NCBI GenBank assembly: GCA_948466255.1
Contig: CAOJZV010000004.1
Span: 5,541 to 69,540, forward strand
DNA length: 64,000 nucleotides
Reading direction: 5' to 3'
Source of the DNA: an uncultured Bacillota bacterium
GTDB taxonomy: Bacteria > Bacillota_I > Bacilli_A > RF39 > UBA660
Shown here piece after piece: positions 3,353-62,191 of this stretch. A program made the translations under genes and the position numbers. The notes below the pieces were generated by a model. The model searched no databases and had not been told where the DNA came from. It saw only the letters and a list, made by a program, of their open reading frames with translations. Numbering within the stretch: position 1 is the first letter of the stretch; every line of letters starts with the position of its first letter.

Positions 3353-4036
3353 ATGAATATTTTAGTTGTTGATGATGAAAAAGAAATTGCTGATTTAATT
3401 GAAGTATATCTTAAAAATGAAAATTACAATGTTTATAAATATTATGATAGTGAAATGGTTTTAAGTGATATTGATGCGCTTAATGTTGATTTAGCCATTT
3501 TAGATGTAATGATGCCTGGAATTGATGGTTTTGATTTGTGCAAGAAAATTAGAGATAATTATAATTTTCCGATTATTTTTGTAACTGCGAAAGTAGAAGA
3601 TATTGATAAGATAAGTGGCCTTACTATTGGTGCGGATGATTATATAACTAAACCTTTTCAGCCACTTGAACTTATGGCCCGTGTGAAAGCACAGCTTAGA
3701 AGGTATAAAAGGTATAATCAAGTATTAGATGAAAATATTATTGATTTTAGAAATATTTTAATTAATAATGATACTCATGAATTTTATTTTAATGCAAAGA
3801 AAGTAGAACTTACGCCTATAGAGTTTTCTATCATGTGGCATTTGTGTAAAAATAGGGGAAATGTAATTAAAACGGATGATCTTTTTATGGAAGTATGGGG
3901 CGAGAAGTATTTTGAGAAAGACAATAATACAATTATGGTTCATATAAGACATTTAAGAGAAAAAATGAATGATTGTGGCAGAAATCCAAAGTATATAAAA
4001 ACTATATGGGGAGTGGGGTATAAAATTGAAAAATAA
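3353..4036 (+). CDS. OmpR-family response regulator, VanR-like
   Basis: ILVVDDE, LAILDVMMP, GADDYITKPF, winged-helix NTIMVHIRHLREK and TIWGVGYK. Confidence 0.92.
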   Translation: MNILVVDDEKEIADLIEVYLKNENYNVYKYYDSEMVLSDIDALNVDLAILDVMMPGIDGFDLCKKIRDNYNFPIIFVTAKVEDIDKISGLTIGADDYITKPFQPLELMARVKAQLRRYKRYNQVLDENIIDFRNILINNDTHEFYFNAKKVELTPIEFSIMWHLCKNRGNVIKTDDLFMEVWGEKYFEKDNNTIMVHIRHLREKMNDCGRNPKYIKTIWGVGYKIEK

Positions 4037-5129
4037 TAAATTTGTAAGAAATGCGCTTTTTAAATTCGCACTTCAAGAGATTATTAGTTTAGCTATTATT
4101 GTATTTGTTTTGGGAATTGTCTTTGCAATTGTCCAAATGTCTGATTTTAACTGGTTATATAATGATTCACCTAATTTATATTTTTGGTTTACTGAAGTTT
4201 TTAGTATGATATATAATGGTTTTGGATTTTTTATAATTGTTTTAATTTTTTGGATTTTGGTGACTTTTGTTTTAGTTTATAGATTACTTAAAGAAGTATC
4301 TTCTTATATTGACGTGGTGACAGATGCTTCAGGTTTATTATTTGATAAGGATACTGAGTATATTAAGTTACCATCTGAATTATCTTTGGCTGAGGAAAAT
4401 TTAAATCATTTGAAAAGGGAATATGAAAAAAGCGAGCGTCTTTCTAAAGAAAATGAGCAGAAGAAAGATGACTTGATTGTTTATTTGGCTCATGATATTA
4501 AAACGCCTCTTACTTCTATGATTGGTTATTTATCTTTGCTTGAGGAAATAGATGATATGCCTAAAAAGCAAAGACAAAAATATATAAATATTGCTTTGGA
4601 AAAATCTTATAAACTTGAAGATTTGATTAATGAACTTTTTGATATTACAAGATTTAATTCAGAAAAAATTGTCTTAATGAAAGAAGAAGTTAATCTTGGT
4701 ATGATGATTGAACAAATTGCCGATGATTTTTATCCGATTTTAAAGGAATATGATAGAGAAATTAAGATAACTTCCGATTCTAAGGTTATATTAAATGCTG
4801 ATTCTAATCAATTAGCTAGAGTATTTAGTAATATTATTAAAAATGCTTGTTTTTATAGTACTGATAGGGATATTTTGATTGATATTAGTAAGTCTGATGA
4901 TATGGCTAATATAGTGATTAGTAATAAGGGTAAGAAAATTTCTTCAGAAAAACTTAAGCTTTTATTTGAAAAATTTTACCGTGCTGATTCTTCTAGAACT
5001 AGTAAAACAGGTGGTAGCGGTCTTGGTCTTGCGATTGCAAAAGAGATTACTGATTTACACGGCGGAACTATTAAAGCTGAAAGTGATGATGAGTATACAA
5101 GGTTTATTGTTAGTTTACCTATTAAGTAA
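4026..5129 (+). CDS. Sensor histidine kinase, VanS-like
   Basis: Two N-terminal TMs; H-box YLAHDIKTPLTS; N-box FSNIIKNA; FEKFYR; G2 GSGLGLAIAK. Confidence 0.92.
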   Translation: MKNNKFVRNALFKFALQEIISLAIIVFVLGIVFAIVQMSDFNWLYNDSPNLYFWFTEVFSMIYNGFGFFIIVLIFWILVTFVLVYRLLKEVSSYIDVVTDASGLLFDKDTEYIKLPSELSLAEENLNHLKREYEKSERLSKENEQKKDDLIVYLAHDIKTPLTSMIGYLSLLEEIDDMPKKQRQKYINIALEKSYKLEDLINELFDITRFNSEKIVLMKEEVNLGMMIEQIADDFYPILKEYDREIKITSDSKVILNADSNQLARVFSNIIKNACFYSTDRDILIDISKSDDMANIVISNKGKKISSEKLKLLFEKFYRADSSRTSKTGGSGLGLAIAKEITDLHGGTIKAESDDEYTRFIVSLPIK

Positions 5130-5232
5130 TTCTTAAGATTTTTATAAGGTTAAAGTTAAAAATAATCATTTTATGATTGATACAATTTAATTGTGTTAAT
5201 GAGATGATTATTTTTTTATGGGAGGATGACTT

Positions 5233-6078
5233 ATGACAAAGGGGAAAAGAAGACCTAAAAAGGGCTTAAAGTTTTTAGTTTTAATTTTACTTATTTTATG
5301 GGGGTTATATTTATTATTGTTTGATAGATTTTCTATTAATGATTTTAAAGTTATGGATAAATTATCTTATGATGATGTTTCCAGTTTAAAAAATAATAAA
5401 GGATCTATTAAAAGTAGACTTAAGAAACTTAGTAAAGAAGATGATAGAATTAGTGATATTATTAAAGATTATAATAGTTACCCTGAGGCTTTACTGGATA
5501 TGTTATCTAGAGATATTGATTTGTTAGATTTTGTTTTGAATTATCATGATAAAAGCGGGAAAGTATTTAGTGAAACTATTGATGTAAGAAGGGGTGAAAT
5601 TCCTTTGTTACTTCAGTGGGATGAAAGATGGGGTTATGCTTCTTATGGCGAGAATATGATTGCGATTAGTGGATGCGCACCAACTTCTTTGGCGATGGTT
5701 ATTTCAGGTTTAACTGGTGATACTTCTATTACGCCTTATAAGGTAGCTAAGTATGCGGAAGATAATGGTTTTTATGTTGATGGAACTGGAACTAGTTGGA
5801 GCTTGATGACGAGTGGTAGTGAATTTTTTGGGATTGATGCTAAACAAATTTCTTTATCAAAAGATAATGTATTTAGTGAACTTGAAAATGGTCATCCAAT
5901 TATTGCAAGCATGCGTGAAGGAGATTTTACAACGGCTGGTCATTTTATTGTTTTAACTGGCGTTTCTAATGGGAAAATTAAAGTAAATGATCCTAATAGT
6001 AAGAAGCGTAGTAGTCTTTTATGGGATTATGATAGGCTAGAAAGTCAGATTAAAAATTTATGGTCATTTAGTGTTTAA
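5233..6078 (+). CDS. Membrane-anchored C39-like peptidase
   Basis: N-terminal TM; LLQWDERWG, GCAPTSLAMV (catalytic Cys), GHFIVL (His), VNDPNS (Asp). Confidence 0.85.
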   Translation: MTKGKRRPKKGLKFLVLILLILWGLYLLLFDRFSINDFKVMDKLSYDDVSSLKNNKGSIKSRLKKLSKEDDRISDIIKDYNSYPEALLDMLSRDIDLLDFVLNYHDKSGKVFSETIDVRRGEIPLLLQWDERWGYASYGENMIAISGCAPTSLAMVISGLTGDTSITPYKVAKYAEDNGFYVDGTGTSWSLMTSGSEFFGIDAKQISLSKDNVFSELENGHPIIASMREGDFTTAGHFIVLTGVSNGKIKVNDPNSKKRSSLLWDYDRLESQIKNLWSFSV

Positions 6079-6718
6079 GGAGTATGAATATATGGAAAGA
6101 TTTATTATGATTAAGTATGAGGTTTTAACTTGCTTTGTACCGTTTGTTATTTTATTATTTATTTTGAATTACTTTTATAAGAAAAAATATAATTGTGGGA
6201 TTATGAGAAGAAAAGCTTTTTTGCTTATTTTGTTTGCTTTATATATAACAGGTGTATTTTATTTTACAGGCTCAGGTACTATTTGGGATGGATTATTTAA
6301 AAATTTTGATATTAGATATGAATATATTAATTTTATACCTTTTTCTAATAATATTGATACTATTGGATATTTACTGAATATAGTTTTACTTATTCCTTTT
6401 GGCTTTTTAGTTCCACTTATTTGGAAAAAATTAAATAGGCCTTCAGTTGTTATTGTATTTGGATTTTTATTTTCTTTGCTTGTTGAATTAAGCCAGCTTT
6501 TAAATAATCGTAGTACTGATATTGATGATTTGATTTTGAATACTTTAGGAGCACTTATAGGTTTTGTTATTTTTAGATTATGTGATAAAGTGTTTAAGTT
6601 TGATGATGGTGGAAGTTATTACAAATATGAAATGGTTATTATTGTTTTAGTTATGTTTATAGGCAAGTTTTTACTGTTTAATGAATATTTTTTAGCTTCA
6701 TTATTGTATGGTTTTTAA
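6071..6718 (+). CDS. VanZ-family membrane protein
   Basis: INFIPF, LNIVLLIPFGFLVP, ELSQL, DIDDLILNTLGA motifs. Confidence 0.88.
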   Translation: MFKEYEYMERFIMIKYEVLTCFVPFVILLFILNYFYKKKYNCGIMRRKAFLLILFALYITGVFYFTGSGTIWDGLFKNFDIRYEYINFIPFSNNIDTIGYLLNIVLLIPFGFLVPLIWKKLNRPSVVIVFGFLFSLLVELSQLLNNRSTDIDDLILNTLGALIGFVIFRLCDKVFKFDDGGSYYKYEMVIIVLVMFIGKFLLFNEYFLASLLYGF

Positions 6719-6888: not shown

Positions 6889-7722
6889 ATGGATAAATTA
6901 GAAATTAGTCATAATAGATTTGAAAGTATAAAACACGTAGATGAATTTGAAAACGAATATTGGCATGCAAGAGAACTTATTCATGCATTAGAATATAAAA
7001 AGTGGTAAAAATTTATTAATGTAATAGATAACGCAAAAACCGCATGTGAAAAAAGTGGGAGTTTAATTGATAACCATTTTACCCAAGTGGGTAAAATGGT
7101 CGATATTGGGTCCAACACTTCAAGAAAAATAAAAGACTATAAGTTGTCAAGATATGCTTGTTACTTAATTGTTCAAAATGCAGATCCAAGAAAAAAAGAA
7201 GTTGCACTCGGGCAAACATACTTTGCTATTCAAACGAGAAAACAAGAGATTAGTGAAAAAGAATATAACTTATTAACGGAAGATGAAAAGAGATTTTATC
7301 AAAGAAGTTTAACTAAAAAAGGTAACTACTCATTAAATAAAGCTGCTAAAAATGTTGGAGTTAAAAACTTTGATAAATTTCATAACTATGGTTATAAAGG
7401 ACTATATAATGGAGAAACTGCGGATGATATTGCAAAAAGAAAAAAATTACGATATAGAGAAGATATTTTAGACAATATGGGTAGCGATGAATTAATTGCT
7501 AATCTCTTTAGAATATCTCAAACAGAACAAAAGTTAAGAAATGATAACATTAAGGGTGAGTCTAACGCTAATAAAGTACATTATAATATGGGCAGAGATA
7601 TTAGAAAATTTATAGAAAAACAAGGTGGAACGATGCCAGAAAATTTACCAACGCCTGAAAAAAGTTTAAAACAAATAGAAAAAGAAAATAAAACAAAAGC
7701 AACAAGTATAGATATTAAATAA
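6889..7722 (+). pseudogene. dinD: DinD-like DNA-damage-inducible protein, interrupted by an in-frame TAA at 7006-7008
   Basis: ATG 6889 after AGGAG RBS gives MDKLEISHNRFESIKHVDEFENEYWHARELIHALEYKKW*KFINVID..., continuing in frame into the 7087..7722 ORF; highly similar to the intact paralog at 24377. Confidence 0.8.
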
Positions 7723-21000: not shown

Positions 21001-21939
21001 ATGAAAAATGTAATTGAAGTGAAAGATTTAACAAAAGAATATAAAAAATTAAAGGCAGTAGATGATTTATCTTTTGAAGTTAAAGAAGGGGAGATTTTAG
21101 GTTTACTTGGTCCTAATGGAAGTGGTAAATCAACAACAATAAATTGTATCTTGTCGCTACTTAATTTTCAGAAAGGCTCTATTAAAATATTTGGTAAGGA
21201 AATGAAACCTGATTCTTATGATTTGAAAAGACAAATTGGTGTCATCTTTCAAGAGGTGGCTGTCTTTGAAGAATTAACTGTATATGATAATGTTGATTAT
21301 TTTTGTGGTTTATATATAAATGATAAAAAACTTAGAGAAAAATATGTTAATGAGGCTTTGGAGTTGGCCGGACTTTTAGATTATAAAAAGTTTTATCCTA
21401 AACAATTATCTGGCGGATTACTTAGAAGATTAAATATTGCCTGTGGTATTGCTCACAAACCAAAATTAATATTTTTAGATGAGCCAACAGTAGCCGTTGA
21501 TCCACAAAGTAGAAATAATATTTTAGAAGGTATTAAAAAATTAAGAGATAATGGTGCTACTATAGTTTATACAACGCATTATATGGAAGAAGTAGAAATT
21601 CTTTGTGATAGAATTATCATTTTGGATAAGGGTAAAATTCTGGCTAGTGGGACAGCATCTGATTTAAAGGAATTATCTGAAATAGATGAGAAGATTACTG
21701 TAGAGATTAGTGAAATTGATGAGAGTATTTTAAATGAAATTAATAATTTAGAAAATGTAGATGACTTTACTTTTGAAATGAATGTACTTACTGTTAAATA
21801 TAAAAAGGGCAAAAACAATTTAGGAGAGCTTATAAACTTTTTAAAGAAAAACAATGTAACTTATAATAAAATCTTTTCGGAAAGACCTACTTTGAATGAT
21901 GTATTTTTAAGTTTAACTGGTAAGGAACTTAGAGATTAA
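21001..21939 (+). CDS. ABC exporter ATP-binding protein (LnrL/YfiL-like)
   Basis: GPNGSGKST, LSGG, FLDEPTVAVDPQSRN, YTTHYMEE. Confidence 0.93.
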   Translation: MKNVIEVKDLTKEYKKLKAVDDLSFEVKEGEILGLLGPNGSGKSTTINCILSLLNFQKGSIKIFGKEMKPDSYDLKRQIGVIFQEVAVFEELTVYDNVDYFCGLYINDKKLREKYVNEALELAGLLDYKKFYPKQLSGGLLRRLNIACGIAHKPKLIFLDEPTVAVDPQSRNNILEGIKKLRDNGATIVYTTHYMEEVEILCDRIIILDKGKILASGTASDLKELSEIDEKITVEISEIDESILNEINNLENVDDFTFEMNVLTVKYKKGKNNLGELINFLKKNNVTYNKIFSERPTLNDVFLSLTGKELRD

Positions 21940-23111
21940 TGTTTTGGCACAATTTTAAGTATTCTTTAAAAGTTTTATTTAAGAGTAAGGTTTTAATTTT
22001 TTGGACGTTTGCCTTTCCAATTTTAATGGGAATTTTCTTTAACTTGGCTTTTTCTGATATTGAAAATAGTGAGAAGTTAGATGTTATAGATATTGCAGTT
22101 GTTAAAAGTGATGAGTTTGATAAAAATATTATTTTTAAGGAAGCCTTCAAAAATTTAAGTGATGGTGATGATAAACTTTTTGATATTGATTATACTAATT
22201 TAGATAAGGCTAAACAGTTACTTGAAGATGATAAGATTACTGGTTATTTAGTATTTAATGATGATATTAATATTGTAGTTTCTTCTAGTGGTATTAATGA
22301 GACTATTTTAAAATATGTGGTTAATGAAATTAGTAGTAATGCTGAGATGATTAATACTCTTGCTGCAAATGATATTAATAATGAGATAAAGAAGGGTAAT
22401 TATAATATTAATTATGAAGAAATTTATGCTGGTGCTTATAAACTTGTAAGTAAAGATACGGCTAAACTTCATAATATTTCTAATAAGAATTTAAGTTATA
22501 CAATGATTGAATATTACACTTTAATCGCAATGGCTTGTTTGTATGGTGGTATCTTATCTATGTATATTATTAATTATAAACTTGCTAATATGAATAGTGT
22601 TGGTAAGAGAACGGCTATTTCGCCAGTTCATAGAGGACAGATGCTTGTTAGTAGTTTGCTTGCTAGTTATGTAGTTCAGTTAATCGGCCTTGCTATTTTG
22701 TTTGTATTTACAATTTCCGTATTAAATGTTGATTATGGTGATAATCTGCCGATGATTATTTTGCTGGCTCTTGCTGGCTCACTTGCGGGTCTTTCACTTG
22801 GTGTAATAGTGGCTACTTTAATTAAGGCTAATGAAAATGCAAAGACTGGTATTTTGATTGCTATTACTATGCTTGGTTGTTTCTTATCTGGAATGATGGG
22901 TATTACGATGAAGTATATTGTTGATACAAATGTACCTTTAGTTAATATGATTAATCCTGCTAGTATGATTACTGATGGTTTTTATGCTTTATATTATTAC
23001 AGTACTTTAGATAGATTTATTTTTGATATTGTTAGTTTACTTGTGTTTTCTATTTTGCTTATTTTTATTTCATATTTTGGTTTAAGGAGGCAGAAGTATG
23101 ACAGTATTTAA
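21939..23111 (+). CDS. ABC-2 type exporter permease
   Basis: N-terminal TM, large extracellular loop, five C-terminal TMs; operonic with the ATPase. Confidence 0.88.
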   Translation: MFWHNFKYSLKVLFKSKVLIFWTFAFPILMGIFFNLAFSDIENSEKLDVIDIAVVKSDEFDKNIIFKEAFKNLSDGDDKLFDIDYTNLDKAKQLLEDDKITGYLVFNDDINIVVSSSGINETILKYVVNEISSNAEMINTLAANDINNEIKKGNYNINYEEIYAGAYKLVSKDTAKLHNISNKNLSYTMIEYYTLIAMACLYGGILSMYIINYKLANMNSVGKRTAISPVHRGQMLVSSLLASYVVQLIGLAILFVFTISVLNVDYGDNLPMIILLALAGSLAGLSLGVIVATLIKANENAKTGILIAITMLGCFLSGMMGITMKYIVDTNVPLVNMINPASMITDGFYALYYYSTLDRFIFDIVSLLVFSILLIFISYFGLRRQKYDSI

Positions 23112-24246
23112 ATCATTTTGGAAAGTCCTTTTAAAGTATAAAGGAACGATTATTTTATATTCAATGATCTTAATTATCTTTGGGGCGATTAATATGTCTA
23201 CTTCTGATAGTAGTGTTAATTTTGAAGATAGTAAGCCTGATGTTTTGATTATTAATGATGATAAAGGAAATAAAGTTTCTGATAATTTAGTTAAGTATAT
23301 TGCTGATAATAGTAATGTTATTAACGGCCTTAAGGGTGAAGATGAAATTAATGATGCTTTATTTTATAGGAATGTAAATTATGTTATTTATATTCCTAAG
23401 GATTATGGAAAAGATATTATGGATGGCAAAAATCCTGAGATTGATATTAAGTCTACTGGTGATTATCAAGCAAGTTTAGCAGAAATGATGCTTAAGAGAT
23501 ATATTCAGGTTCAAAATATTTATAAGGCAAGTGTAAGTAATGAGGATGAGTTTATTAAACTTATTAATAATAATCTTTCTAAGGATGCAAGTATTGAAAT
23601 TACTTCTAAATTAGATACTAATAAACTTTCTAATGTTTCTACATATTTTTCATTTGCTAGTTATAGTATTATGGCGGTAATAATTTTTATTATTTGTTTA
23701 GTATTATCTAGTTTTAAGGAAAAGACTGTTAATAAAAGAACAATTATTAGTAGTATGAATTATAAAAAATATAATAGGAATCTTTTATTTGCTAGTTTTG
23801 GTTATTCATTTATTTTGTGGGTATTTTTTATTGTTCTTGGAATTATTATGCTTGGTGATATTATGTTTACAAGTAGGGGACTTGTTTATATGCTTAATTC
23901 GTTTGTATTTACTATTTGTTGTTTAACGATTGCTTTATTTATAAGTACTCTTGTTACTAATAAAAACGCTGTTAATGGAATTGTTAATGTGGTAGCACTT
24001 GGATCTTCTTTCCTTTGCGGGGCTTTTGTGCCTGCCGAGTGGCTTCCTAATTCTGTTTTAACTTTCGCACATATACTTCCTACTTATTGGTATATTAATT
24101 CTAATGATTTACTTAAGACAATAGAGGTTATAGATTTTAGTAGTCTGCAGCCAATATTTATTAATATGTTAGTAGTTTTAGGCTTTTCTATATTATTTAT
24201 TATTTTAAATAATATTATTTCTAAGTATAAACAAAAAGTTTCATAA
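23098..24246 (+). CDS. ABC-2 type exporter permease (second subunit)
   Basis: Same topology; SFLCGAFVP...LPTYW motif. Confidence 0.88.
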   Translation: MTVFKSFWKVLLKYKGTIILYSMILIIFGAINMSTSDSSVNFEDSKPDVLIINDDKGNKVSDNLVKYIADNSNVINGLKGEDEINDALFYRNVNYVIYIPKDYGKDIMDGKNPEIDIKSTGDYQASLAEMMLKRYIQVQNIYKASVSNEDEFIKLINNNLSKDASIEITSKLDTNKLSNVSTYFSFASYSIMAVIIFIICLVLSSFKEKTVNKRTIISSMNYKKYNRNLLFASFGYSFILWVFFIVLGIIMLGDIMFTSRGLVYMLNSFVFTICCLTIALFISTLVTNKNAVNGIVNVVALGSSFLCGAFVPAEWLPNSVLTFAHILPTYWYINSNDLLKTIEVIDFSSLQPIFINMLVVLGFSILFIILNNIISKYKQKVS

Positions 24247-24376: not shown

Positions 24377-25207
24377 ATGTCAGAACTACAAACTTATAAC
24401 GAAAGAACTTTTGAAGATATTAAACATATCGATGAATATGGTAACGAGTATTGGGAAGCAAGAGAACTGCAAGTGGTGTTAGAATATAAAGAATGGAGAA
24501 ATTTCAAAAAGGTAATGGATAAAGCGATGATTGCTTGTAATGCTAGTAAAAACAATATGTTAGACCATTTTGTTGAGTTCAACAAAATCGTTGAAGCTGG
24601 GGCAACAACTAAAAAAGTTTTAGATTATAAACTATCTAGATATGCTTGTTATTTAATTGTTCAAAATGGTAATCCAAAAAAAGAAGTAATAGCGTTAGGT
24701 CAAACTTATTTTGCTATTCAAACTAGGAAACAGGAACTCACTGAAAAAGAATACTATTTACTAACAGAAGATGAGAAAAGATTTTACCAAAGAAATTTAA
24801 CTAAGAAAGGAAATTATTCATTAAATAAAGCAGCTAAAAATGCTGGTGTTAAAAATTTTGATAAATTTCATAATGCTGGATATAAAGGTTTATATAATGG
24901 CGAAACTGCAAACGATATTGCTAGAAGAAAAGGTTTAAGATATAGGGAGGATATTTTAGATAATATGGGTAGTGAAGAATTAGCCGCTAATTTATTTCGC
25001 ATTACACAAACTGAATCAAAGTTAAAAAGAGATAATATTAAAGGAGAAAACAAGGCAAATCAAACTCACTATAATATTGGTAAAAACATTAGAGATGTAA
25101 TTGCTAAAAATGGTGGAACTATGCCTGAAGAATTACCAACGCCTGATAAAAGCTTGAAAGAATTAGAAAAAGAAAGTAAAAATAAACTTATGTTTAAGGA
25201 TGAATAA
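24377..25207 (+). CDS. dinD: DNA damage-inducible protein D-like
   Basis: FEDIKH..EYWEAREL, LSRYACYLIVQNG.P.KEVIALGQTYFAIQTRKQE, ILDNMGSEELAANLFRITQT, GGTMPEELPTP. Confidence 0.9.
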   Translation: MSELQTYNERTFEDIKHIDEYGNEYWEARELQVVLEYKEWRNFKKVMDKAMIACNASKNNMLDHFVEFNKIVEAGATTKKVLDYKLSRYACYLIVQNGNPKKEVIALGQTYFAIQTRKQELTEKEYYLLTEDEKRFYQRNLTKKGNYSLNKAAKNAGVKNFDKFHNAGYKGLYNGETANDIARRKGLRYREDILDNMGSEELAANLFRITQTESKLKRDNIKGENKANQTHYNIGKNIRDVIAKNGGTMPEELPTPDKSLKELEKESKNKLMFKDE

Positions 25208-25266
25208 TTATTATTTATTTTAATTAAAAAACATATAATATTGTATGATAGTGTAATTTTTTAAAA

Positions 25267-25295
25267 TTGACGTTATAGTAAAAATATGCTATAAT
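25267..25295 (+). promoter_or_regulatory. Sigma-A promoter of OLE RNA
   Basis: TTGACG-17-TATAAT with TG extension; start site predicted ~25302. Confidence 0.8.
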
Positions 25296-25303
25296 TCAAA
25301 GAG

Positions 25304-25883
25304 TTAATGGCACATTATTCTAGTCAATTAATTTACTATGAAGACGGGATTAAACCACCGTTAAAGAGCATATCTGTGAAGCCTTTGGTGATTGCTTTAT
25401 ACGCCCAGTTTAGGGTGGTTGCTGGAGGATAGGATATTGGGCGCTCGTAATGGCATACGACAAACGACCCAATATTCGTGGAGACCTTTGCTTGTGGTAA
25501 GCCTATACGCGTATTTAGCTGATGGACTTATTACGACATTGGATTTGAACCTACTTTGTGGCGAAAGTTATGGGTAGTGTAGCTTGTCTTGCGTGAAAGT
25601 ATTGGGATAAATGAACTGATTTAATTCTATGGCCAAAGAGTTAAATACTGCGTTTTGAAATTGCTTTTGCAAAAAAGAACTAATAGTAAATATTGGTGAG
25701 GAAATCTTCTAGAATGTTTCAATATAGGATTGCAGTGGATACTAAGTGGTAATCAAGTCATGCAATTGGCGACAATGCATTATTTTCTTTAAAGGGGAAC
25801 CGCATACTTGGTAACGAGAATGTAGAAAATAGGGAAATCCTACTTGACCTAAGATTCAAAGTTTACTATATTGATGCCATTAA
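25304..25883 (+). ncRNA. ole: OLE (ornate, large, extremophilic) RNA
   Basis: ~580-nt GC-enriched noncoding region closed by a 9-bp helix (TTAATGGCA 25304-25312 / TGCCATTAA 25875-25883); carries OLE-like conserved blocks in the expected order (TATTCTAGTCA, ACGCCCAGTT, GTAGTGTAGC, GAGGAAA..CTAGA, ACTAAGTGGTAATC, TTAAAGGG.AACCGC, GACCTAAG); lies directly upstream of oapA. Confidence 0.9.
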
Positions 25884-25901
25884 TTTTTTTTGGAGGGATT
25901 T

Positions 25902-26483
25902 ATGGGCTTTAGAGCAGAACTTAAAAATTTAAAAGTTCAAGATAAAAGAAAAGCAAAAGAAAAATCTGATAAAAAATGGATTACAACAATACTTATTATA
26001 ACTTTTACAGTATCTATATGTATGTCATTTATATCAGAAATGACAATACCAAAAGCTAACATATTTATAGGTATAATAATAACGCTTATATTTATTTTTA
26101 TTGGTGTTATATTTGACATAATAGGGGTTAGTGTGACAGCTGCAGATGAAAAAATATTTCATTCAATGAATTCACGAAAGGTAAAAGGTGCAAAGATAGC
26201 TGTTAAGTTTAAGAAAAATGCTGATAAAGTATCAAATTTTTGCTGCGATGTTATCGGTGATGTTTGCGGAGTAGTTTCAGGTACTGCGGCTGCATCAATT
26301 TCATTAATATTATCTAGTAATTTAAATACTAATGTATTTGTTACAACATTAATAGTAACAGGAATAATTGCTTCACTTACGATTGGTGGTAAAGCGATTG
26401 GTAAAAGTTATGCCATAAATAAAAGTGATGTTATACTATTTGAATTTTCAAAAATAGTTTCTTGTTTTTATAAAGAAAAGTAG
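25902..26483 (+). CDS. oapA: OLE-associated protein A (DUF21/CNNM-type 4-TM protein)
   Basis: GVIFDIIGVSVTAADE..FHSM.SRKVKGA, NADKVSNFCCDVIGDVCGVVSG, ASLTIGGKAIGK; ATG 25902 after GGAGGG; directly follows OLE RNA. Confidence 0.9.
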   Translation: MGFRAELKNLKVQDKRKAKEKSDKKWITTILIITFTVSICMSFISEMTIPKANIFIGIIITLIFIFIGVIFDIIGVSVTAADEKIFHSMNSRKVKGAKIAVKFKKNADKVSNFCCDVIGDVCGVVSGTAAASISLILSSNLNTNVFVTTLIVTGIIASLTIGGKAIGKSYAINKSDVILFEFSKIVSCFYKEK

Positions 26484-26609
26484 CCTATTCAAAAGCAAAT
26501 CTTTAATGATTTGTTTTTTGTGTTATAATGATAATAAAATGCACTTAAAAGTTGGTAGAATTTATTTGTCTTTTTTAATAAACTTAATAATGGAAAGGAG
26601 AAGTGTCTA

Positions 26610-27467
26610 ATGAAATTTGGAGACAATTTAAAACAAATAAGAAGAAGTAAAAAAATATCTCAGGAAAAGCTTGCTGAAATATTAGGAGTATCTAGACAAT
26701 CAATATCTAAATGGGAAACTGGTGAAAACTTTCCTAGTATGCAAAATATTATATGTTTGTGTGATATTTTTAAATGTAAAATTAATGATTTAGTTCATGA
26801 GGATTTTGTTGATATAGATTCATTAGACGAAGAAATTAAAATGAGTGTTGTTAAGTTTAAAAAAGAAAAACAAAAAAAGATGAAAATTATTAGTAAATTT
26901 ATTTATGTACTTTCAAAGATTGGCGAAATTATGACTGAGGTTGGTATGGCTATATTAGTAGTTCTTGCAATTTCACTTCCATTTGTATTTAAAGATGTTA
27001 GCATTGATGGTTTTGAGTTAAAAGCGAATGATATTGTAATTGGTGATGTAACTAAAGCAGATGTATCAGTAGTAACTGATTATTTAAATAATCATACCAA
27101 TACTGAAATAATTATCCATGCAGAAATAATTTTAATTAGTTTGATTGTATCATTATTTTTACTTAGAATGATTATGAATTATTTATACAAACTATTTAAA
27201 AACATTAATGAATGTGATACACCATTTACGATGGACAATGTCACATATATTAGAAAAATATCATTATATGTATTACTTTATATTATTGTTCCATATATTT
27301 TGGGTGTATTAACACAATTAATTATGGGTATTAATTTGAATGCCGAACTAGAACTTACAAGTATTGTTTTAGGACTAATTATTTTTAGTATATCTTATAT
27401 TTTTGAATATGGGTATCAGATACAATTAGATTCTAAGGGAAAGATTTATGGTGATGAAAGTGAATAA
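26610..27467 (+). CDS. XRE-family HTH fused to a membrane domain (DUF2975-like)
   Basis: SQEKLAEILGVSRQSISKWETG HTH; C-terminal TPFT...IFEYG..IQ. Confidence 0.8.
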   Translation: MKFGDNLKQIRRSKKISQEKLAEILGVSRQSISKWETGENFPSMQNIICLCDIFKCKINDLVHEDFVDIDSLDEEIKMSVVKFKKEKQKKMKIISKFIYVLSKIGEIMTEVGMAILVVLAISLPFVFKDVSIDGFELKANDIVIGDVTKADVSVVTDYLNNHTNTEIIIHAEIILISLIVSLFLLRMIMNYLYKLFKNINECDTPFTMDNVTYIRKISLYVLLYIIVPYILGVLTQLIMGINLNAELELTSIVLGLIIFSISYIFEYGYQIQLDSKGKIYGDESE

Positions 27468-60111: not shown

Positions 60112-60855
60112 ATGGCATTAAATAACGCAAAAGTAATTACAGTTACTTCTGTAAAGGGAGGAACTGGTAAATCAACAACTGTTTTAAATTTAGCTGGTAT
60201 TTTATCTGAAATTGGTAAAAAAACAATTATTGTTGACTTAGATTTATATTCCGGTGTAATTGGTGCTAGCCTTAATTTAACTGATGGTAGTGACATTTAT
60301 ACTTTATGTGAGGATTTTGTAAATAATAGATTTGACCATTTTGAAAATTATGTTAGTAAGTATAATGATTATATTGATGTTTTAGCGGCACCAATAGATC
60401 CTAGAAGTAGTACTAAAGTAAAAGCTAAATATGTTAATATTATTTTATCTAGACTTAAATTACAATATGATGTTATTTTGATTGATACAAATCATGTTAT
60501 GGAACAAAATAATTTAGTTGCTTTAGATTTTAGCGATGAAATATTGTATGTGATTACTAATGATTTAATGGATTTAAAAAACATGAAAACAATGATTTCG
60601 ATTTATAAAGATATGAATAAAGATAATTATAAAATTATTTTAAATGAAGCAAGACTTAATAATACTAAGTATAATAATTCAGAAGTTAGTACTATCATAG
60701 GTAAAAGTGTTGATTATATAATTCCGAAGAATTTTTATAATCATAAAATTGAAGATTTTATTTATGATGGAAAAATAATGACTTTAGATAAAGGTATTTC
60801 TAAAAACAAAAATACTAATGTATTTAGAAAAATAATTAAAGATGTATTAGAATAG
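60112..60855 (+). CDS. CpaE/TadZ-like MinD-family ATPase (no receiver domain)
   Basis: SVKGGTGKST deviant Walker A, IVDLDL, YDVILIDT; in tad operon. Confidence 0.85.
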   Translation: MALNNAKVITVTSVKGGTGKSTTVLNLAGILSEIGKKTIIVDLDLYSGVIGASLNLTDGSDIYTLCEDFVNNRFDHFENYVSKYNDYIDVLAAPIDPRSSTKVKAKYVNIILSRLKLQYDVILIDTNHVMEQNNLVALDFSDEILYVITNDLMDLKNMKTMISIYKDMNKDNYKIILNEARLNNTKYNNSEVSTIIGKSVDYIIPKNFYNHKIEDFIYDGKIMTLDKGISKNKNTNVFRKIIKDVLE

Positions 60856-60865
60856 GAGGGGCATA

Positions 60866-62191
60866 ATGAATAAAAAGTTTACCGATGAATTTGATATAGA
60901 TATCGAAGAGGCTACTGTTACAACTGAAATGAATGATTACGATGCCTTTCCTGATAAGGTTTTACTTGAAAAACTTCGTAATGAAATTATTCAAAGCTTA
61001 ATTGATAATAATATTCAAAGTCATGAGTCTATGGATGATTTTATTAAAGTTCAAATTGATAAAATTATTGAAGGTTATGATTTAAGTAGTAGTGAAAGAA
61101 ACTATATTTATAATTTGATTGATAATGAAGTTAATGGATATGGACCTTTGACTGAGCTTTTAAAAGATAAAAATATAACTGAAATAATGGTTAATGGTAA
61201 AGATGAAATATATATTGAATTAGATGGTCATATAAGACGTGATAATACAACTAGTTTTGTTAATGATGAGCATATTGTTAGAGTAGTTCAAAAATTAGTT
61301 CAACCTTTAGGTAGAACTATTGATATTGCTCATCCAATGGTTGATGCCCGTTTAGATGATGGATCTCGTTTGAATGCGGTTTTACCACCACTTTCATTAA
61401 ATGGTCCTGTTCTTACTATCCGTAAGTTTAAAAGGGAACTTGCTAATATTGATGACTTTTTAAGAACTGGTACTTTAACACCTTATATGGCGAGATTTTT
61501 AGAAGCTTGTGTTCATGCGAAACTTAATATTTTAATTGTTGGAGGTACTGGTGCTGGTAAAACAACTTTATTGAATGTATTATCCGCATTTTGTTATCCA
61601 GATGAACGTATTATTACAATTGAGGATGCTGCAGAACTTAGACTTAAACAGGACCATGTAATTTCTCTCGAAACAAGGACAAACAATTATGAGGGTACAG
61701 GTATGGTTACTGTTCGTGATTTAGTTATCAACAGTTTACGTATGAGACCGGATAGAATTATTGTTGGTGAAGTTCGTGGTAAAGAAGCTTTTGATATGCT
61801 TCAAGCTATGAATACTGGTCATGACGGAAGTATGACTACAATGCATGCGAATAGTCCGGTGGATGCTTTAAATAGGCTTGAAACAATGGTTCTTATGAAT
61901 GGAGTAGAAATTCCAGTTGCAGCCATTCGTGAATATATTGAAAATGCCATAGATATTATTGTTCAAGTACGTAGATTTAGTGATGGACGAAGAAGAGTCA
62001 CTAGTATTACTGAGGTTACTGGAAGTAGAGATGGTGAAATAATCCAAAGAGAAATCTTTAAATTTAAACAAAATGGGGTATTACCTAATGGCGAAGTTAT
62101 TGGGGAATTCTTAATGCATAATTATGTTCCTAAAGTTTATGAAAAAATTAAAGCTAGAGGAATTAGTGAAATAGACGATATATTTAATTAG
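60866..62191 (+). CDS. cpaF: Tad pilus assembly ATPase CpaF/TadA
   Basis: [52 protein letters not shown]. Confidence 0.95.

What the first reader, a model, noticed from the sequence alone, without database searches (positions are those of the whole stretch)
25267..26483. Complete OLE RNA - oapA locus hidden under a spurious ORF
Seen: a consensus promoter, a ~580-nt GC-enriched RNA closed by a 9-bp 5'/3' helix, and oapA immediately downstream. Known: OLE RNAs are large, highly structured ncRNAs of Bacillota that form a membrane RNP with OapA and are linked to cold, alcohol and Mg2+ stress tolerance; their biochemical function is unresolved. Retention in an AT-rich, apparently reduced gut-type genome with a diverged sequence makes this an informative variant for defining the minimal core.
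Basis: partly seen in the sequence, partly recalled or inferred. Interest (0 to 1): 0.75.

Follow-up and report, generated by a model that had tools for sequence, protein, structure and literature searches.

The report
OLE RNA gene with oapA partner
This stretch holds a complete copy of OLE RNA, a large folded bacterial RNA already known to science, together with the gene for its membrane partner OapA, and in this small gut bacterium the pair looks like a self-contained unit that was probably picked up from a related species.

Summary
Window 25291-25896 (+) matches Rfam OLE (RF01071) over the whole model at 367.3 bits. It sits behind an 11/12 sigma-70 promoter with an extended -10. A 9-bp 5'/3' helix closes the RNA (25304-12 with 25875-83), and oapA follows at 25902-26483.

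The OapA call rests on four results. 47 of 49 ORFs downstream of classical OLE RNAs are homologous to it. The DxxxD motif is invariant. The Pfam CNNM match is sub-threshold. The top fold matches are CorB/CorC.

The fold is supported by covariation in 79 relatives: 135 of 179 pairs change on both sides.

It is a new member of a known kind, not a minimal variant. Only one small hairpin is missing. OLE in reduced gut clades that lack OapB/OapC is already published (PMC11332333). This scan has also found OLE on other DNA before.

New here:
- Only 6 of 65 genomes of the genus carry OLE and OapA.
- The closest relatives lack both.
- The DNA specific to this genome is exactly promoter + OLE + oapA + terminator, in a hypervariable slot.
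- Cassette and genome phylogenies disagree.

Lateral acquisition is therefore likely (about 0.6). OapC was not found; OapB could not be tested properly.

The parts
25267..25295 (+). sigma-70 promoter: -35 TTGACG 25267-72, 17-nt spacer with TG at 25287-88, -10 TATAAT 25290-95. The expected transcript start is about 25301-25303.
   Evidence: 11/12, TG before the -10. Conserved position and quality in relatives: 12/12 in 51 of 77; controls at most 9/12. The start site is inferred, not mapped.
25291..25896 (+). OLE RNA gene (Rfam span). The structured core runs 25304-25883 (580 nt).
   Evidence: RF01071, 367.3 bits, E 2.5e-104, model 1-616/616. It is the only copy in the assembly. Covariation in 79 relatives.
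25304..25312 (+). P1 5' strand; pairs with 25875-25883 (P1 3' strand).
   Evidence: Perfect complementarity. In relatives, a sequence's own 5'/3' ends pair better than non-own ends in 46 of 67, mean -1.6 kcal/mol. The MAFFT register is poor here (50% paired).
25313..25323 (+). P2 5' strand (25313-16 and 25320-23); pairs with 25709-25716.
   Evidence: 100% of cells are paired in 78 sequences. One position covaries: UG 50, CG 20, UA 7 (helices 2-3).
25325..25339 (+). P3/P3.1 5' strand (25325-28, 25331-39); pairs with 25683-25695. This is the stem proposed in the literature to span the membrane.
   Evidence: 13 bp in the window. All 13 pairs show changes on both sides among relatives; 91-94% paired (helices 4-5). 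The membrane role comes from PMC12265935 section 4 and was not tested.
25343..25680 (+). Domain 1 (P4-P9), including P7 25485-25542, P8 25551-25577 and P9 25586-25680 with the palindromic loop UGGCCA. The P5.1 loop GCCCA and P6.1 loop AAUGGCAU are also kept.
   Evidence: Rfam structure mapped on the window; covariation per helix. The stem names were assigned by me from the descriptions in PMC12265935 section 4.
25760..25780 (+). P13 hairpin with one bulged A and a GCGA (GNRA) tetraloop. These are the features of the published OapB-binding site.
   Evidence: The features are as described in PMC7936274 (passages read). Helix 22: 8 of 8 pairs with changes on both sides.
25884..25891 (+). Run of 8 T directly after the P1 3' strand and before the oapA ribosome-binding site.
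   Evidence: A T run of 6 or more in the last 26 nt occurs in 19 of 79 aligned OLE sequences. Its role is unknown.
25902..26483 (+). oapA, 193 aa (RBS GGAGG 25892-96). DxxxD = D116-D120. Four long hydrophobic helices.
26491..26524 (+). Terminator-like hairpin (11-bp A/U-rich stem, 6-nt loop) with a U-rich 3' arm and tail.
   Evidence: -11.8 kcal/mol, z -3.35, 0 of 200 shuffles fold as well. The consensus scan missed it because it has fewer than 3 G-C pairs.
25214..26515 (+). DNA specific to this genome compared with its closest relatives: the whole promoter-OLE-oapA-terminator unit (about 1.3 kb).
   Evidence: Homology with G283 and G259 ends at 25191 and 25213. Homology with G285 resumes at 26516. 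No OLE remnant was found in those loci. There are no flanking repeats.
24377..25207 (+). Flank, not part of the unit: dinD (DNA damage-inducible protein D, Bro-N domain).
   Evidence: NF008573, 347.7 bits; Pfam Bro-N. It is not next to OLE in any of 79 related loci.
26610..27467 (+). Flank, not part of the unit: XRE-type HTH protein with a membrane C-terminal part.
   Evidence: An ortholog is present in G285 without OLE beside it.

Best explanation
This is a functional ole-oapA transcription unit.

A near-consensus sigma-70 promoter starts the transcript 1-3 nt before helix P1. The first roughly 580 nt fold into the ornate OLE architecture. P1, P2 and P3 are long-range helices. Domain 1 comprises P4-P9, and the 3' domain holds P12-P14. 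The same transcript then carries oapA and ends at an A/U-rich terminator.

By analogy with the studied systems, OLE RNA dimerises through its conserved loops. It is held at the membrane by a dimer of the four-helix, CNNM-like protein OapA, and the particle helps the cell cope with stresses such as excess Mg2+, cold, alcohols or poor carbon sources.

In this lineage the particle most likely works with OapA as its only dedicated protein.

The unit was probably acquired laterally, as a 1.3-kb cassette, from another species of the same genus, into a hypervariable chromosomal slot. An older, shorter OLE type had been lost from this lineage beforehand.

Shown here: family membership of the RNA and the protein, the fold's covariation, the conserved promoter, the cassette boundaries, the patchy distribution, and the incongruence between cassette and genome trees.

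Inferred: the transcript ends, RNA-protein binding, membrane location, the physiological role, the sufficiency of OapA alone, and the direction and fact of transfer.
For: RNA:
- RF01071 at 367.3 bits over the full model.
- 150 of 159 model pairs exist in the window and 138 of them are canonical.
- On 79 sequences (78 distinct), 88.6% of cells are paired, 135 of 179 pairs change on both sides, and the covariation score is 0.390 against at most 0.101 for slid partners. 0 of 500 shuffles reach it.
- 180 of 199 columns conserved in classical OLE RNAs are kept.

Protein:
- 47 of 49 ORFs found downstream of classical OLE loci are homologous (E 1e-31 to 1e-52), and all carry D[VI][VI]GD.
- 20 of the 20 such loci tested are Rfam OLE at 385-541 bits.
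- D116, G119 and D120 are invariant in 46 sequences.
- Pfam CNNM scores 17.9 bits, below its 28.4 cut-off.
- The AF2 model has pLDDT 83.2, and its top six Foldseek hits are all CorB/CorC CNNM transmembrane domains.

Linkage:
- 69 of 74 OapA loci in species genomes have OLE upstream. Three of the five misses are cut off by contig ends.
- Within the genus, OLE and OapA occur in the same 6 of 65 genomes.

Expression hints:
- The consensus promoter is conserved.
- Exact-match contigs at 25331-25507, 25681-25762 and 25733-25817 occur in two RNA-seq runs of one study.

Partners:
- No L7Ae-family gene was found in this assembly, nor in 5 OLE-bearing relatives that are 92-100% complete.
- The KOW screen found only L24 and NusG there.

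Transfer:
- The nearest relatives (MutS 94%, Ffh 97%) lack OLE and OapA.
- On the MutS tree the genome sits in a 12-row clade (SH-aLRT 97) whose other 11 rows lack OLE.
- G000-G290: MutS 77%, OapA 78%, OLE 88%. G290-G262: MutS 92%, OapA 76%, OLE 89%.
- The site of the other OLE type is an empty 114-nt spacer in this genome.
- The genome-specific DNA equals the transcription unit.
Against: Function:
- No experiment or raw-read mapping shows a stable RNA, its ends, or its binding to OapA.
- The RNA-seq evidence consists of assembled contigs from one study. DNA carry-over cannot be excluded, and the contigs cannot show strand or ends.
- The P4 loop is less A-rich than in classical OLE RNAs. Three of the 19 conserved columns lost lie there.

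Partners:
- This assembly is only 67.8% complete.
- The KOW screen for OapB had no positive control.
- P13 and the k-turn strand remain conserved. That could mean an undetected OapB- or OapC-like partner exists.

Transfer:
- The species tree rests on one protein, with SH-aLRT support only, and covers 32 of the 65 genus genomes.
- Absence calls come from MAGs that are 81-94% complete.
- No integrase, repeats or other transfer signature flank the unit.
- OapA identity to G290 (78%) is no higher than housekeeping identity (77-81%), so no recent donor has been sampled.
- Gene loss is common in reduced genomes.
Confidence: 0.9

Rival explanations
1. The cassette is ancestral. It was inherited vertically in this lineage and lost many times in the rest of the genus; no lateral transfer took place.
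For: OLE is found in 11 of 15 other genera of the family, so it is old in the group. The closest OapA and OLE relatives lie in the same genus. OapA identity to G290 (78%) is about the same as MutS (77%) and Ffh (81%) identity. No mobility genes or repeats flank the unit. Reduced genomes lose genes readily.
Against: On the MutS tree this would need separate losses in each of the lineages that branch off between this genome and G290/G262. Eleven OLE-less rows lie inside its own 12-row clade alone. It would also need long coexistence with the second OLE type, which G258 and G296 carry at a different site that is empty here. The cassettes of G000, G290 and G262 are equidistant, although G290 and G262 are far closer to each other as genomes. 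The genomic context is shared with none of 79 related loci.
Confidence: 0.33
2. The RNA part is mainly a long structured 5' leader that controls oapA in cis, not a stable RNA that works in a particle.
For: One promoter serves both. No terminator hairpin separates the RNA from oapA, and the RBS lies 9 nt after P1.
Against: The RNA belongs to a family whose members are abundant, stable RNAs bound by OapA in the studied species (PMC12265935 section 3, read). Co-transcription is the norm there too. In 5 of 69 related loci one or more ORFs of 103-787 aa lie between OLE and oapA, which does not fit a leader. The conservation of about 180 core positions and of the dimerisation loops exceeds what a leader needs.
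Confidence: 0.04
3. The locus is a decaying, non-functional remnant.
For: It scores lower than the 20 classical OLE RNAs tested (367 against 385-541 bits). One small hairpin (model 424-435) is missing, and most relatives have lost the system.
Against: The reading frame of oapA is intact with all invariant residues. Compensatory changes keep the helices. The promoter is near-consensus. The missing hairpin is absent from nearly the whole clade in the alignment, so it is a lineage trait, not damage.
Confidence: 0.02
4. The stretch encodes small proteins (the 41-aa or 61-aa frames).
For: The frames exist under table 11.
Against: With the start codon kept, the frames stay open in 5 of 78 and 0 of 78 relatives, while the base pairs covary.
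Confidence: 0.01

Closest known systems
OLE RNA with OapA of Halalkalibacterium (Bacillus) halodurans and Clostridium species (Rfam RF01071; PMC12265935, PMC9723947, PMC7936274)
   Same: The Rfam match covers the full model. The helices P1-P9 and P12-P14 are the same. The loops used for dimerisation (P5.1, P6.1, P9) are conserved. P13 has its bulge and GNRA loop. oapA lies directly downstream with DxxxD and a CNNM-like fold.
   Different: GC is 37% against 43-56% in 20 classical copies. Mean identity to them is 56%. The small hairpin at model positions 424-435 is absent. P9 is about 4 bp shorter, and P7 has a 14-nt insertion in its loop. The unit has its own consensus promoter and is not embedded in the usual gene cluster. 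No L7Ae-family (OapC) gene was found.
Variant OLE RNAs of reduced gut clades TANB77 ('variant 1') and RF39 ('variant 2') (Fernando and Breaker 2024, PMC11332333)
   Same: The host is an uncultured, small-genome gut organism. OapC was not found and OapB was not detected. The score of 367 bits falls in that paper's 310-390 band, although their model is not Rfam's.
   Different: This copy keeps P7, P8 and the P13 tip, which the published variants shorten or lack. The 'variant 2'-like form (P7 and P8 absent, 514-518 nt, 208-229 bits) does exist in two other species of the same genus, at another chromosomal site. The clade name of this genome could not be established with the tools.
MpfA/CorB/CorC (CNNM-family Mg2+ transporters)
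   Same: The transmembrane fold of OapA resembles their CNNM domain, as already published for H. halodurans OapA.
   Different: OapA lacks the CBS and CorC/HlyC domains, has a fourth helix and the DxxxD motif, and is paired with an RNA. A true CNNM protein occurs in only 1 of 65 genomes of the genus.

Membership tests
OLE RNA (Rfam RF01071) | Covariance-model score above the curated gathering score (50 bits), over the whole model | tested here: met
   367.3 bits, E 2.5e-104, model 1-616/616, not truncated.
OLE RNA (Rfam RF01071) | About 600 nt with the many highly conserved nucleotides of the class | tested here: met
   The Rfam span is 606 nt and the core 580 nt. 180 of 199 columns that are at least 19/20 identical in classical OLE RNAs are kept. 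Three of the 19 lost columns lie in the motif used to fetch the classical set.
OLE RNA (Rfam RF01071) | Ornate secondary structure supported by covariation | tested here: met
   150 of 159 pairs are present. 135 of 179 pairs change on both sides, 88.6% of cells are paired, and both controls are far lower. The sequences are related, so the shuffle control overstates the support.
OLE RNA (Rfam RF01071) | oapA as the immediate downstream neighbour | tested here: met
   oapA starts 19 nt after P1. The same arrangement is seen in relatives.
OLE RNA (Rfam RF01071) | Loops that form the RNA dimer (A-rich P4 loop, P5.1/P6.1 kissing loops, palindromic P9 loop; PMC12265935 section 4) | tested here: inconclusive
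   The P5.1 loop GCCCA, the P6.1 loop AAUGGCAU and the P9 loop UGGCCA are present. The P4 loop reads UUAAACCA, where classical copies have a run of five A. Dimer formation was not tested.
OLE RNA (Rfam RF01071) | Stable abundant RNA, membrane-localised ribonucleoprotein | not testable with these tools
   The only evidence is exact-match contigs inside the RNA gene in two RNA-seq runs of one study.
OapA | Homology to the proteins encoded directly downstream of OLE RNAs in other lineages | tested here: met
   47 of 49 downstream ORFs match, E 1e-31 to 1e-52, from loci with 32-60% GC. 20 of the 20 such loci tested are Rfam OLE.
OapA | Two strictly conserved aspartates (DxxxD) | tested here: met
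   DVIGD at residues 116-120. D116, G119 and D120 are invariant in 46 sequences. The motif is named in PMC11332333 section 9.
OapA | Four transmembrane helices and basic cytoplasmic segments | tested here: met
   The AF2 model has helices at 24-48, 54-80, 107-141 and 145-173. Hydropathy segments were found. There are 10 K+R in residues 1-25 and 8 in residues 85-115. Topology is inferred.
OapA | Distant, sub-threshold likeness to the CNNM domain; fold like CorB | tested here: met
   PF01595 at 17.9 bits against a 28.4 cut-off. Foldseek ranks 1-6 are 7m1t, 7m1u, 7cff and 7cfg, with probability 0.90-1.00 and TM 0.47-0.57.
OapA | Binds OLE RNA and localises it to the membrane | not testable with these tools
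   No test was made.
Three-protein OLE particle (OapA + OapB + OapC) | OapC = YbxF, an L7Ae-family k-turn binder | tested here: not met
   PF01248 gave no match at E<=1 in this assembly, which is 67.8% complete. It gave 0 of 5 over the cut-off in OLE-bearing relatives that are 92-100% complete. The control rang in B. subtilis.
Three-protein OLE particle (OapA + OapB + OapC) | OapB = YbzG, a small KOW-motif protein | tested here: inconclusive
   PF00467 finds only L24- and NusG-sized frames in this genome and in 5 relatives. No OapB sequence or profile was available, so the screen has no positive control.
'Variant 1 / variant 2' OLE RNAs (PMC11332333) | Shortened or missing P7, P8 (and P9); P13 tip often missing | tested here: not met
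   P7 (25485-25542), P8 (25551-25577) and the P13 tip are present. Only P9 is about 4 bp shorter. The score band is ambiguous because the paper used another model.

The most novel reading that the evidence does not exclude
The ole-oapA pair behaves as a portable, self-promoted 1.3-kb cassette that moves between species.

This lineage lost its older, shorter OLE type; the site is now empty. It later regained a longer type laterally from a distant member of the genus, into a hypervariable island. The cassette is retained without OapB, OapC or an MpfA substitute.

If so, OLE RNA plus OapA is a sufficient functional unit. OLE would then not be only an ancient, vertically inherited relic. The nearly identical genomes with and without it would form a natural experiment on what the particle is for.
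Probability: 0.55. Interest if true: 0.55.

Novelty: new member of a known kind. Interest (0 to 1): 0.35.

Why it matters
As an OLE RNA locus it adds one more member to a family with thousands of known representatives, and the host type has been described.

Two things may be of use to people who work on OLE RNA, whose biochemical function is still unknown.

First, species with 94-97% identical housekeeping proteins differ by presence or absence of a cleanly bounded ole-oapA unit. That makes comparative genomics of 'with' against 'without' sharper than the phylum-wide profiling done so far.

Second, the apparent portability of the unit, with its own consensus promoter and no OapC, supports the view that RNA plus OapA is the core machine. 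It also suggests a compact construct for heterologous tests.

In this genus, loss of OLE is not matched by gain of MpfA: a true CNNM protein occurs in 1 of 65 genomes. This tempers the published idea that MpfA replaces OLE.

Tried and rejected
OapB:
- No Pfam or NCBIfam model for OapB/YbzG turned up. A scan of an L24 protein at E<=10 listed no such family.
- A literature search gave no accession I could use.
- OLE-bearing metagenome contigs of 1.2-1.6 Mb could not be searched as handles (error).
- OapB therefore remains untested apart from the KOW screen.

Weak hits:
- A weak second CNNM hit in the genome (C1, 12.9 bits) lies in spmA/spmB-like genes. No Rfam match at all was found in that locus at E<=1.
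- The extra KOW hit in G170 is a second L24 next to L14.

PDB sequence search with OapA: only a chance pilin match, E 0.19.

Mobility: no convincing direct or inverted repeats flank the unit. All matches are A/T-rich and 70-90% alike.

Terminator scan: none found between 24300 and 27600 with the G+C-based rule. The A/U-rich hairpin was found by folding instead.

Sequencing runs:
- Parts of the laid stretch without cover in the RNA runs (oapA and the flanks) say nothing, because these are assembled contigs.
- Several laid pieces come from relatives' OLE RNAs, with 2-7 differences in short overlaps.

P1 covariation on the MAFFT alignment failed because of register shifts (50% paired). It was replaced by the duplex test.

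Clade name: the supplement of PMC11332333 held as text contains only figure legends. The clade name (RF39 or other) of this genome could not be checked. That it is RF39-like is my guess from the relatives' record titles and from the 'variant 2'-like OLE in the genus.

Earlier notes of this scan: three of the notes listed report OLE-oapA loci in other genomes. They gave no new lead.
Full report
OBSERVATION.

A scan of the whole window against Rfam gives one strong non-tRNA match: OLE (RF01071) at 25291-25896 on the + strand. It scores 367.3 bits (gathering score 50), E 2.5e-104, covers model positions 1-616 of 616 and is not truncated. It is the only OLE copy in the assembly, which has 1,054,624 bases in 32 contigs and is 67.8% complete with 0.45% contamination.

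The RNA stands out in composition. GC is 0.42, 0.37 and 0.32 in successive 300-nt windows, against 0.21-0.31 around it.

Directly upstream lies TTGACG-17 nt-TATAAT (25267-25295), preceded by TG: 11 of 12 consensus positions. The consensus scan finds no more promoter-like sites in this A/T-rich region than in shuffles (23 against 22.9). I therefore tested conservation.
- In 77 distinct relatives, the 57 nt around the start of the RNA hold a 12/12 consensus promoter in 51, 11/12 in 18, 10/12 in 5 and fewer in 3.
- In 76 control segments 300 nt further upstream the best score was 9/12.

25304-25312 is perfectly complementary to 25875-25883, which gives a 580-nt core.

oapA starts at ATG 25902, five bases after GGAGG, and ends at 26483. 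It is followed by an A/U-rich hairpin with a U-rich tail: -11.8 kcal/mol, z -3.35.

The two short frames inside the RNA (41 and 61 aa) are not conserved. With the start codon kept, they stay open in 5 of 78 and 0 of 78 relatives.

THE RNA.

I mapped the Rfam consensus structure onto the window sequence. 150 of its 159 pairs exist and 138 of those are canonical. I then added three long-range helices that the Rfam model leaves unpaired but the current literature describes:
- P1: 25304-12 with 25875-83.
- P2: 25313-16 and 25320-23 with 25709-16.
- P3/P3.1: 25325-28 and 25331-39 with 25683-95.

Relatives came from two sources. A search of species genomes with the downstream protein gave 74 loci, of which 69 hold OLE upstream by nhmmer. 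Three of the five misses are cut off by contig ends; two (L073, L074) have none. Genome searches gave further loci.

On a MAFFT alignment of 79 full-length sequences (78 distinct, 72% mean column identity), the 179-pair structure gives:
- 88.6% of cells paired;
- 135 pairs with changes on both sides;
- a covariation score of 0.390.
Partners slid by 1-3 columns give 38-46% paired and scores of at most 0.101. 0 of 500 shuffles reach the observed values. The sequences are related, so the shuffle count is not a probability.

P1 is misaligned by MAFFT (50% paired). In a duplex test, each RNA's own 5' and 3' ends pair better than non-own ends in 46 of 67 cases, with a mean gain of 1.6 kcal/mol.

Compared with 20 classical OLE RNAs, the window copy keeps 180 of 199 columns that are at least 95% conserved. 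Mean identity is 56%, and GC is 37% against 43-56%. The classical set was fetched from metagenomes by a conserved motif, and 20 of the 20 tested are confirmed by Rfam at 385-541 bits. Three of the 19 lost columns lie in the fetching motif, so that part of the loss is a selection effect.

What is actually different:
- The small hairpin at model positions 424-435 is absent. In the alignment this holds for nearly the whole clade: by my reading, only L091 carries extra bases at that place.
- P9 is about 4 bp shorter.
- P7 has a 14-nt insertion in its loop.
- The P4 loop has three A where classical copies have five.

What is kept:
- P7 and P8.
- The P5.1, P6.1 and P9 loops that form the RNA dimer in the cryo-EM structures (PMC12265935, section 4 read).
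- P13 with its single bulge and GNRA loop, the published OapB site (PMC7936274, passages read).

This is a nearly complete OLE RNA, not a minimal one.

THE PROTEIN.

Pfam gives only a sub-threshold CNNM match: 17.9 bits against a 28.4 cut-off. NCBIfam gives nothing. The literature describes exactly this behaviour for OapA (PMC11332333, section 9 read).

For an independent test I took the ORFs downstream of classical OLE loci from metagenomes with 32-60% GC. 47 of 49 are homologous to the window protein (E 1e-31 to 1e-52) and every one carries D[VI][VI]GD. In an alignment of 46 sequences, D72, G75, D116, G119, D120, G127, G163, K164 and K168 are invariant. D116 and D120 are the DxxxD pair.

An AlphaFold2 model (pLDDT 83.2, pTM 0.72) has four long hydrophobic helices. 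Its six best Foldseek matches in the PDB are all CorB/CorC CNNM transmembrane domains. Among them is 7M1U, the entry reported as a top match for the H. halodurans protein.

The family is large: 6,227 proteins at E<=0.001.

PARTNERS.

An L7Ae-family gene (OapC = YbxF) was not found in this assembly. It was also absent from five OLE-bearing relatives that are 92-100% complete: 0 of 5 over the cut-off.

A KOW screen for OapB found only L24- and NusG-sized genes. An extra hit in one genome is a second L24. I had no OapB sequence or profile, so this screen has no positive control.

HOST AND DISTRIBUTION.

The stretch occurs in mouse and rat gut metagenomes; the 19 runs that hold it or a part of it come from 8 studies, and only four of those runs, from two of the studies, were laid. 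Relatives' records are titled Bacilli, Mollicutes, Tenericutes or Erysipelotrichaceae MAGs from guts and rumens.

- In the coded taxonomy, OLE occurs in 11 of 15 other genera of the family.
- It occurs in 0 of 135 genomes of other families of the class.
- It occurs in 0 of 147 genomes of other families in a phylum-wide draw.
- Within the genus it is rare. OLE RNA and OapA are found in the same 6 of 65 genomes.

Four of the six (this one, G290, G262, G021) carry the long type: 367-388 bits, about 606 nt. Two (G258, G296) carry a short type without P7 and P8: 514-518 nt, 208-229 bits. The short type resembles the published 'variant 2'.

A true CNNM/MpfA protein occurs in only 1 of the 65 genomes. 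Loss of OLE is therefore not offset by MpfA here.

ORIGIN OF THE UNIT.

The immediate neighbours in the window are dinD upstream and an XRE-type membrane protein downstream. They flank OLE in none of 79 related loci. Relatives have other contexts, partly conserved among themselves.

The closest genomes by Ffh (97%) and MutS (94%) lack OLE and OapA.

Alignment of the region shows where homology breaks:
- Homology with G283 and G259 stops at 25191 and 25213, just after dinD.
- Homology with G285 resumes at 26516, just after the terminator.
- No OLE remnant is present in those genomes.

The slot between a conserved ABC-2 transporter and the XRE gene holds different genes in each relative. The DNA specific to this genome is therefore exactly the transcription unit, in a hypervariable place. 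No repeats or mobility genes flank it.

A MutS tree was built from 37 rows: the 30 best-matching genus genomes, plus G290 and G021, plus five other genera as outgroup. The other 28 genus genomes with a MutS match were left out. On this tree:
- This genome sits in a 12-row clade (SH-aLRT 97) whose other 11 rows lack OLE.
- The next lineages outward carry the short type.
- G290+G262 are basal in the genus.
- The presence label needs at least 5 changes.

The short type's site, between two genes, is an empty 114-nt spacer in this genome.

Pairwise identities are incongruent:

| Pair | MutS | OapA | OLE |
|---|---|---|---|
| G000-G290 | 77% | 78% | 88% |
| G290-G262 | 92% | 76% | 89% |

Together these results favour loss of the short type followed by lateral gain of the long type, at about 0.6. 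The alternative is vertical descent with ten or more separate losses.

The case rests on one marker protein, on incomplete MAGs and on parsimony, so it is an inference. In the searchable library, only one paper raises horizontal transfer of OLE itself, and only for hits outside Bacillota: three papers hold both terms, and in PMC11332333 I read the passage (section 5), while for the other two I saw only titles and abstract starts, which are not about OLE. Subscription journals are not covered.

EXPRESSION.

Two RNA-seq runs of one study hold contigs identical to 25331-25507, 25681-25762 and 25733-25817. This is compatible with expression of the RNA but does not show it. Contigs carry no strand or end information, and DNA can be present in RNA libraries.

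VERDICT.

The finding is correct and well placed. It is a new member of a known family, in a kind of host already described. The added value lies in the cassette-like boundaries, the conserved consensus promoter, the two OLE types at two sites within one genus, and the evidence for lateral exchange.

Noticed in passing
L230 1586-2099 (-), L231 969-1486 (+); own genome C11:28968-29081: Two species of the same genus (G258, G296) carry a short OLE RNA of 514-518 nt. It lacks P7 and P8 (208-229 bits) and has a 170-171-aa OapA that is only 44% identical to the window's. It sits at a different site, which in this genome is an empty 114-nt spacer.
   Followed up: partly
genus-wide; L232: Only 1 of 65 genomes of the genus (G002, 434-aa frame, 173 bits) has a true CNNM/MpfA protein. 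The 59 OLE-less genomes mostly have neither system, which departs from the published OLE/MpfA anticorrelation.
   Followed up: partly
relatives L006-L091, 45 nt before each OLE: OLE genes of this clade are preceded by perfect or near-perfect sigma-70 consensus promoters (12/12 in 51 of 77), ending 0-3 nt before the Rfam model start in most. This suggests strong, autonomous transcription.
   Followed up: yes
window 7087-7722 and 24377-25207; dinD (Bro-N domain) is present twice in the window. One copy (211 aa) matches only positions 69-277 of the 288-position dinD model. Several further copies, 75-80% identical in DNA, are present in close relatives, as in a multi-copy family tied to variable regions.
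   Followed up: no
window 21001-24246 to 26610: The slot between the ABC-2 transporter operon and the XRE membrane-protein gene holds different cargo in each close relative: a 338-aa protein that I take, by recall and without a family scan, to be RhuM-like plus a second XRE gene in G285, and dinD plus unrelated small ORFs in G283 and G259.
   Followed up: partly
window 3353-6718: A VanR-family response regulator (361 bits, over its 350 cut-off), a VanS-like kinase (339.5 bits, under its 400 cut-off) and a VanZ-like protein (103 bits, under its 375 cut-off) lie together. No van ligase was noted among the ORFs scanned.
   Followed up: no
window 60112-62191: A MinD/ParA-like ATPase and a TadA-family secretion ATPase (328 bits, below that model's 373 cut-off) lie side by side, hinting at a Tad/Flp-type pilus locus in a small genome.
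   Followed up: no
L060, L072, L075, L007, L031: In 5 of 69 related loci one or more ORFs (103-787 aa) lie between OLE and oapA, so the pair is not always contiguous.
   Followed up: no
window 25884-25891: A run of 8 T follows the P1 3' strand. A T run of 6 or more in the last 26 nt of the aligned span occurs in 19 of 79 OLE sequences. A long-range helix followed by a U tract might act as a partial terminator; this is speculative.
   Followed up: partly
own genome C1 (L005 995-3157): From the translations, by recall and without a family scan, these look like spmA/spmB (spore maturation) genes and a D-alanyl-D-alanine carboxypeptidase gene. They lie together, of interest because sporulation proteins correlate with OLE in the literature.
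   Followed up: no
whole window: 67 of 69 non-overlapping ORFs of 80 aa or more lie on the + strand, a very strong strand bias.
   Followed up: no
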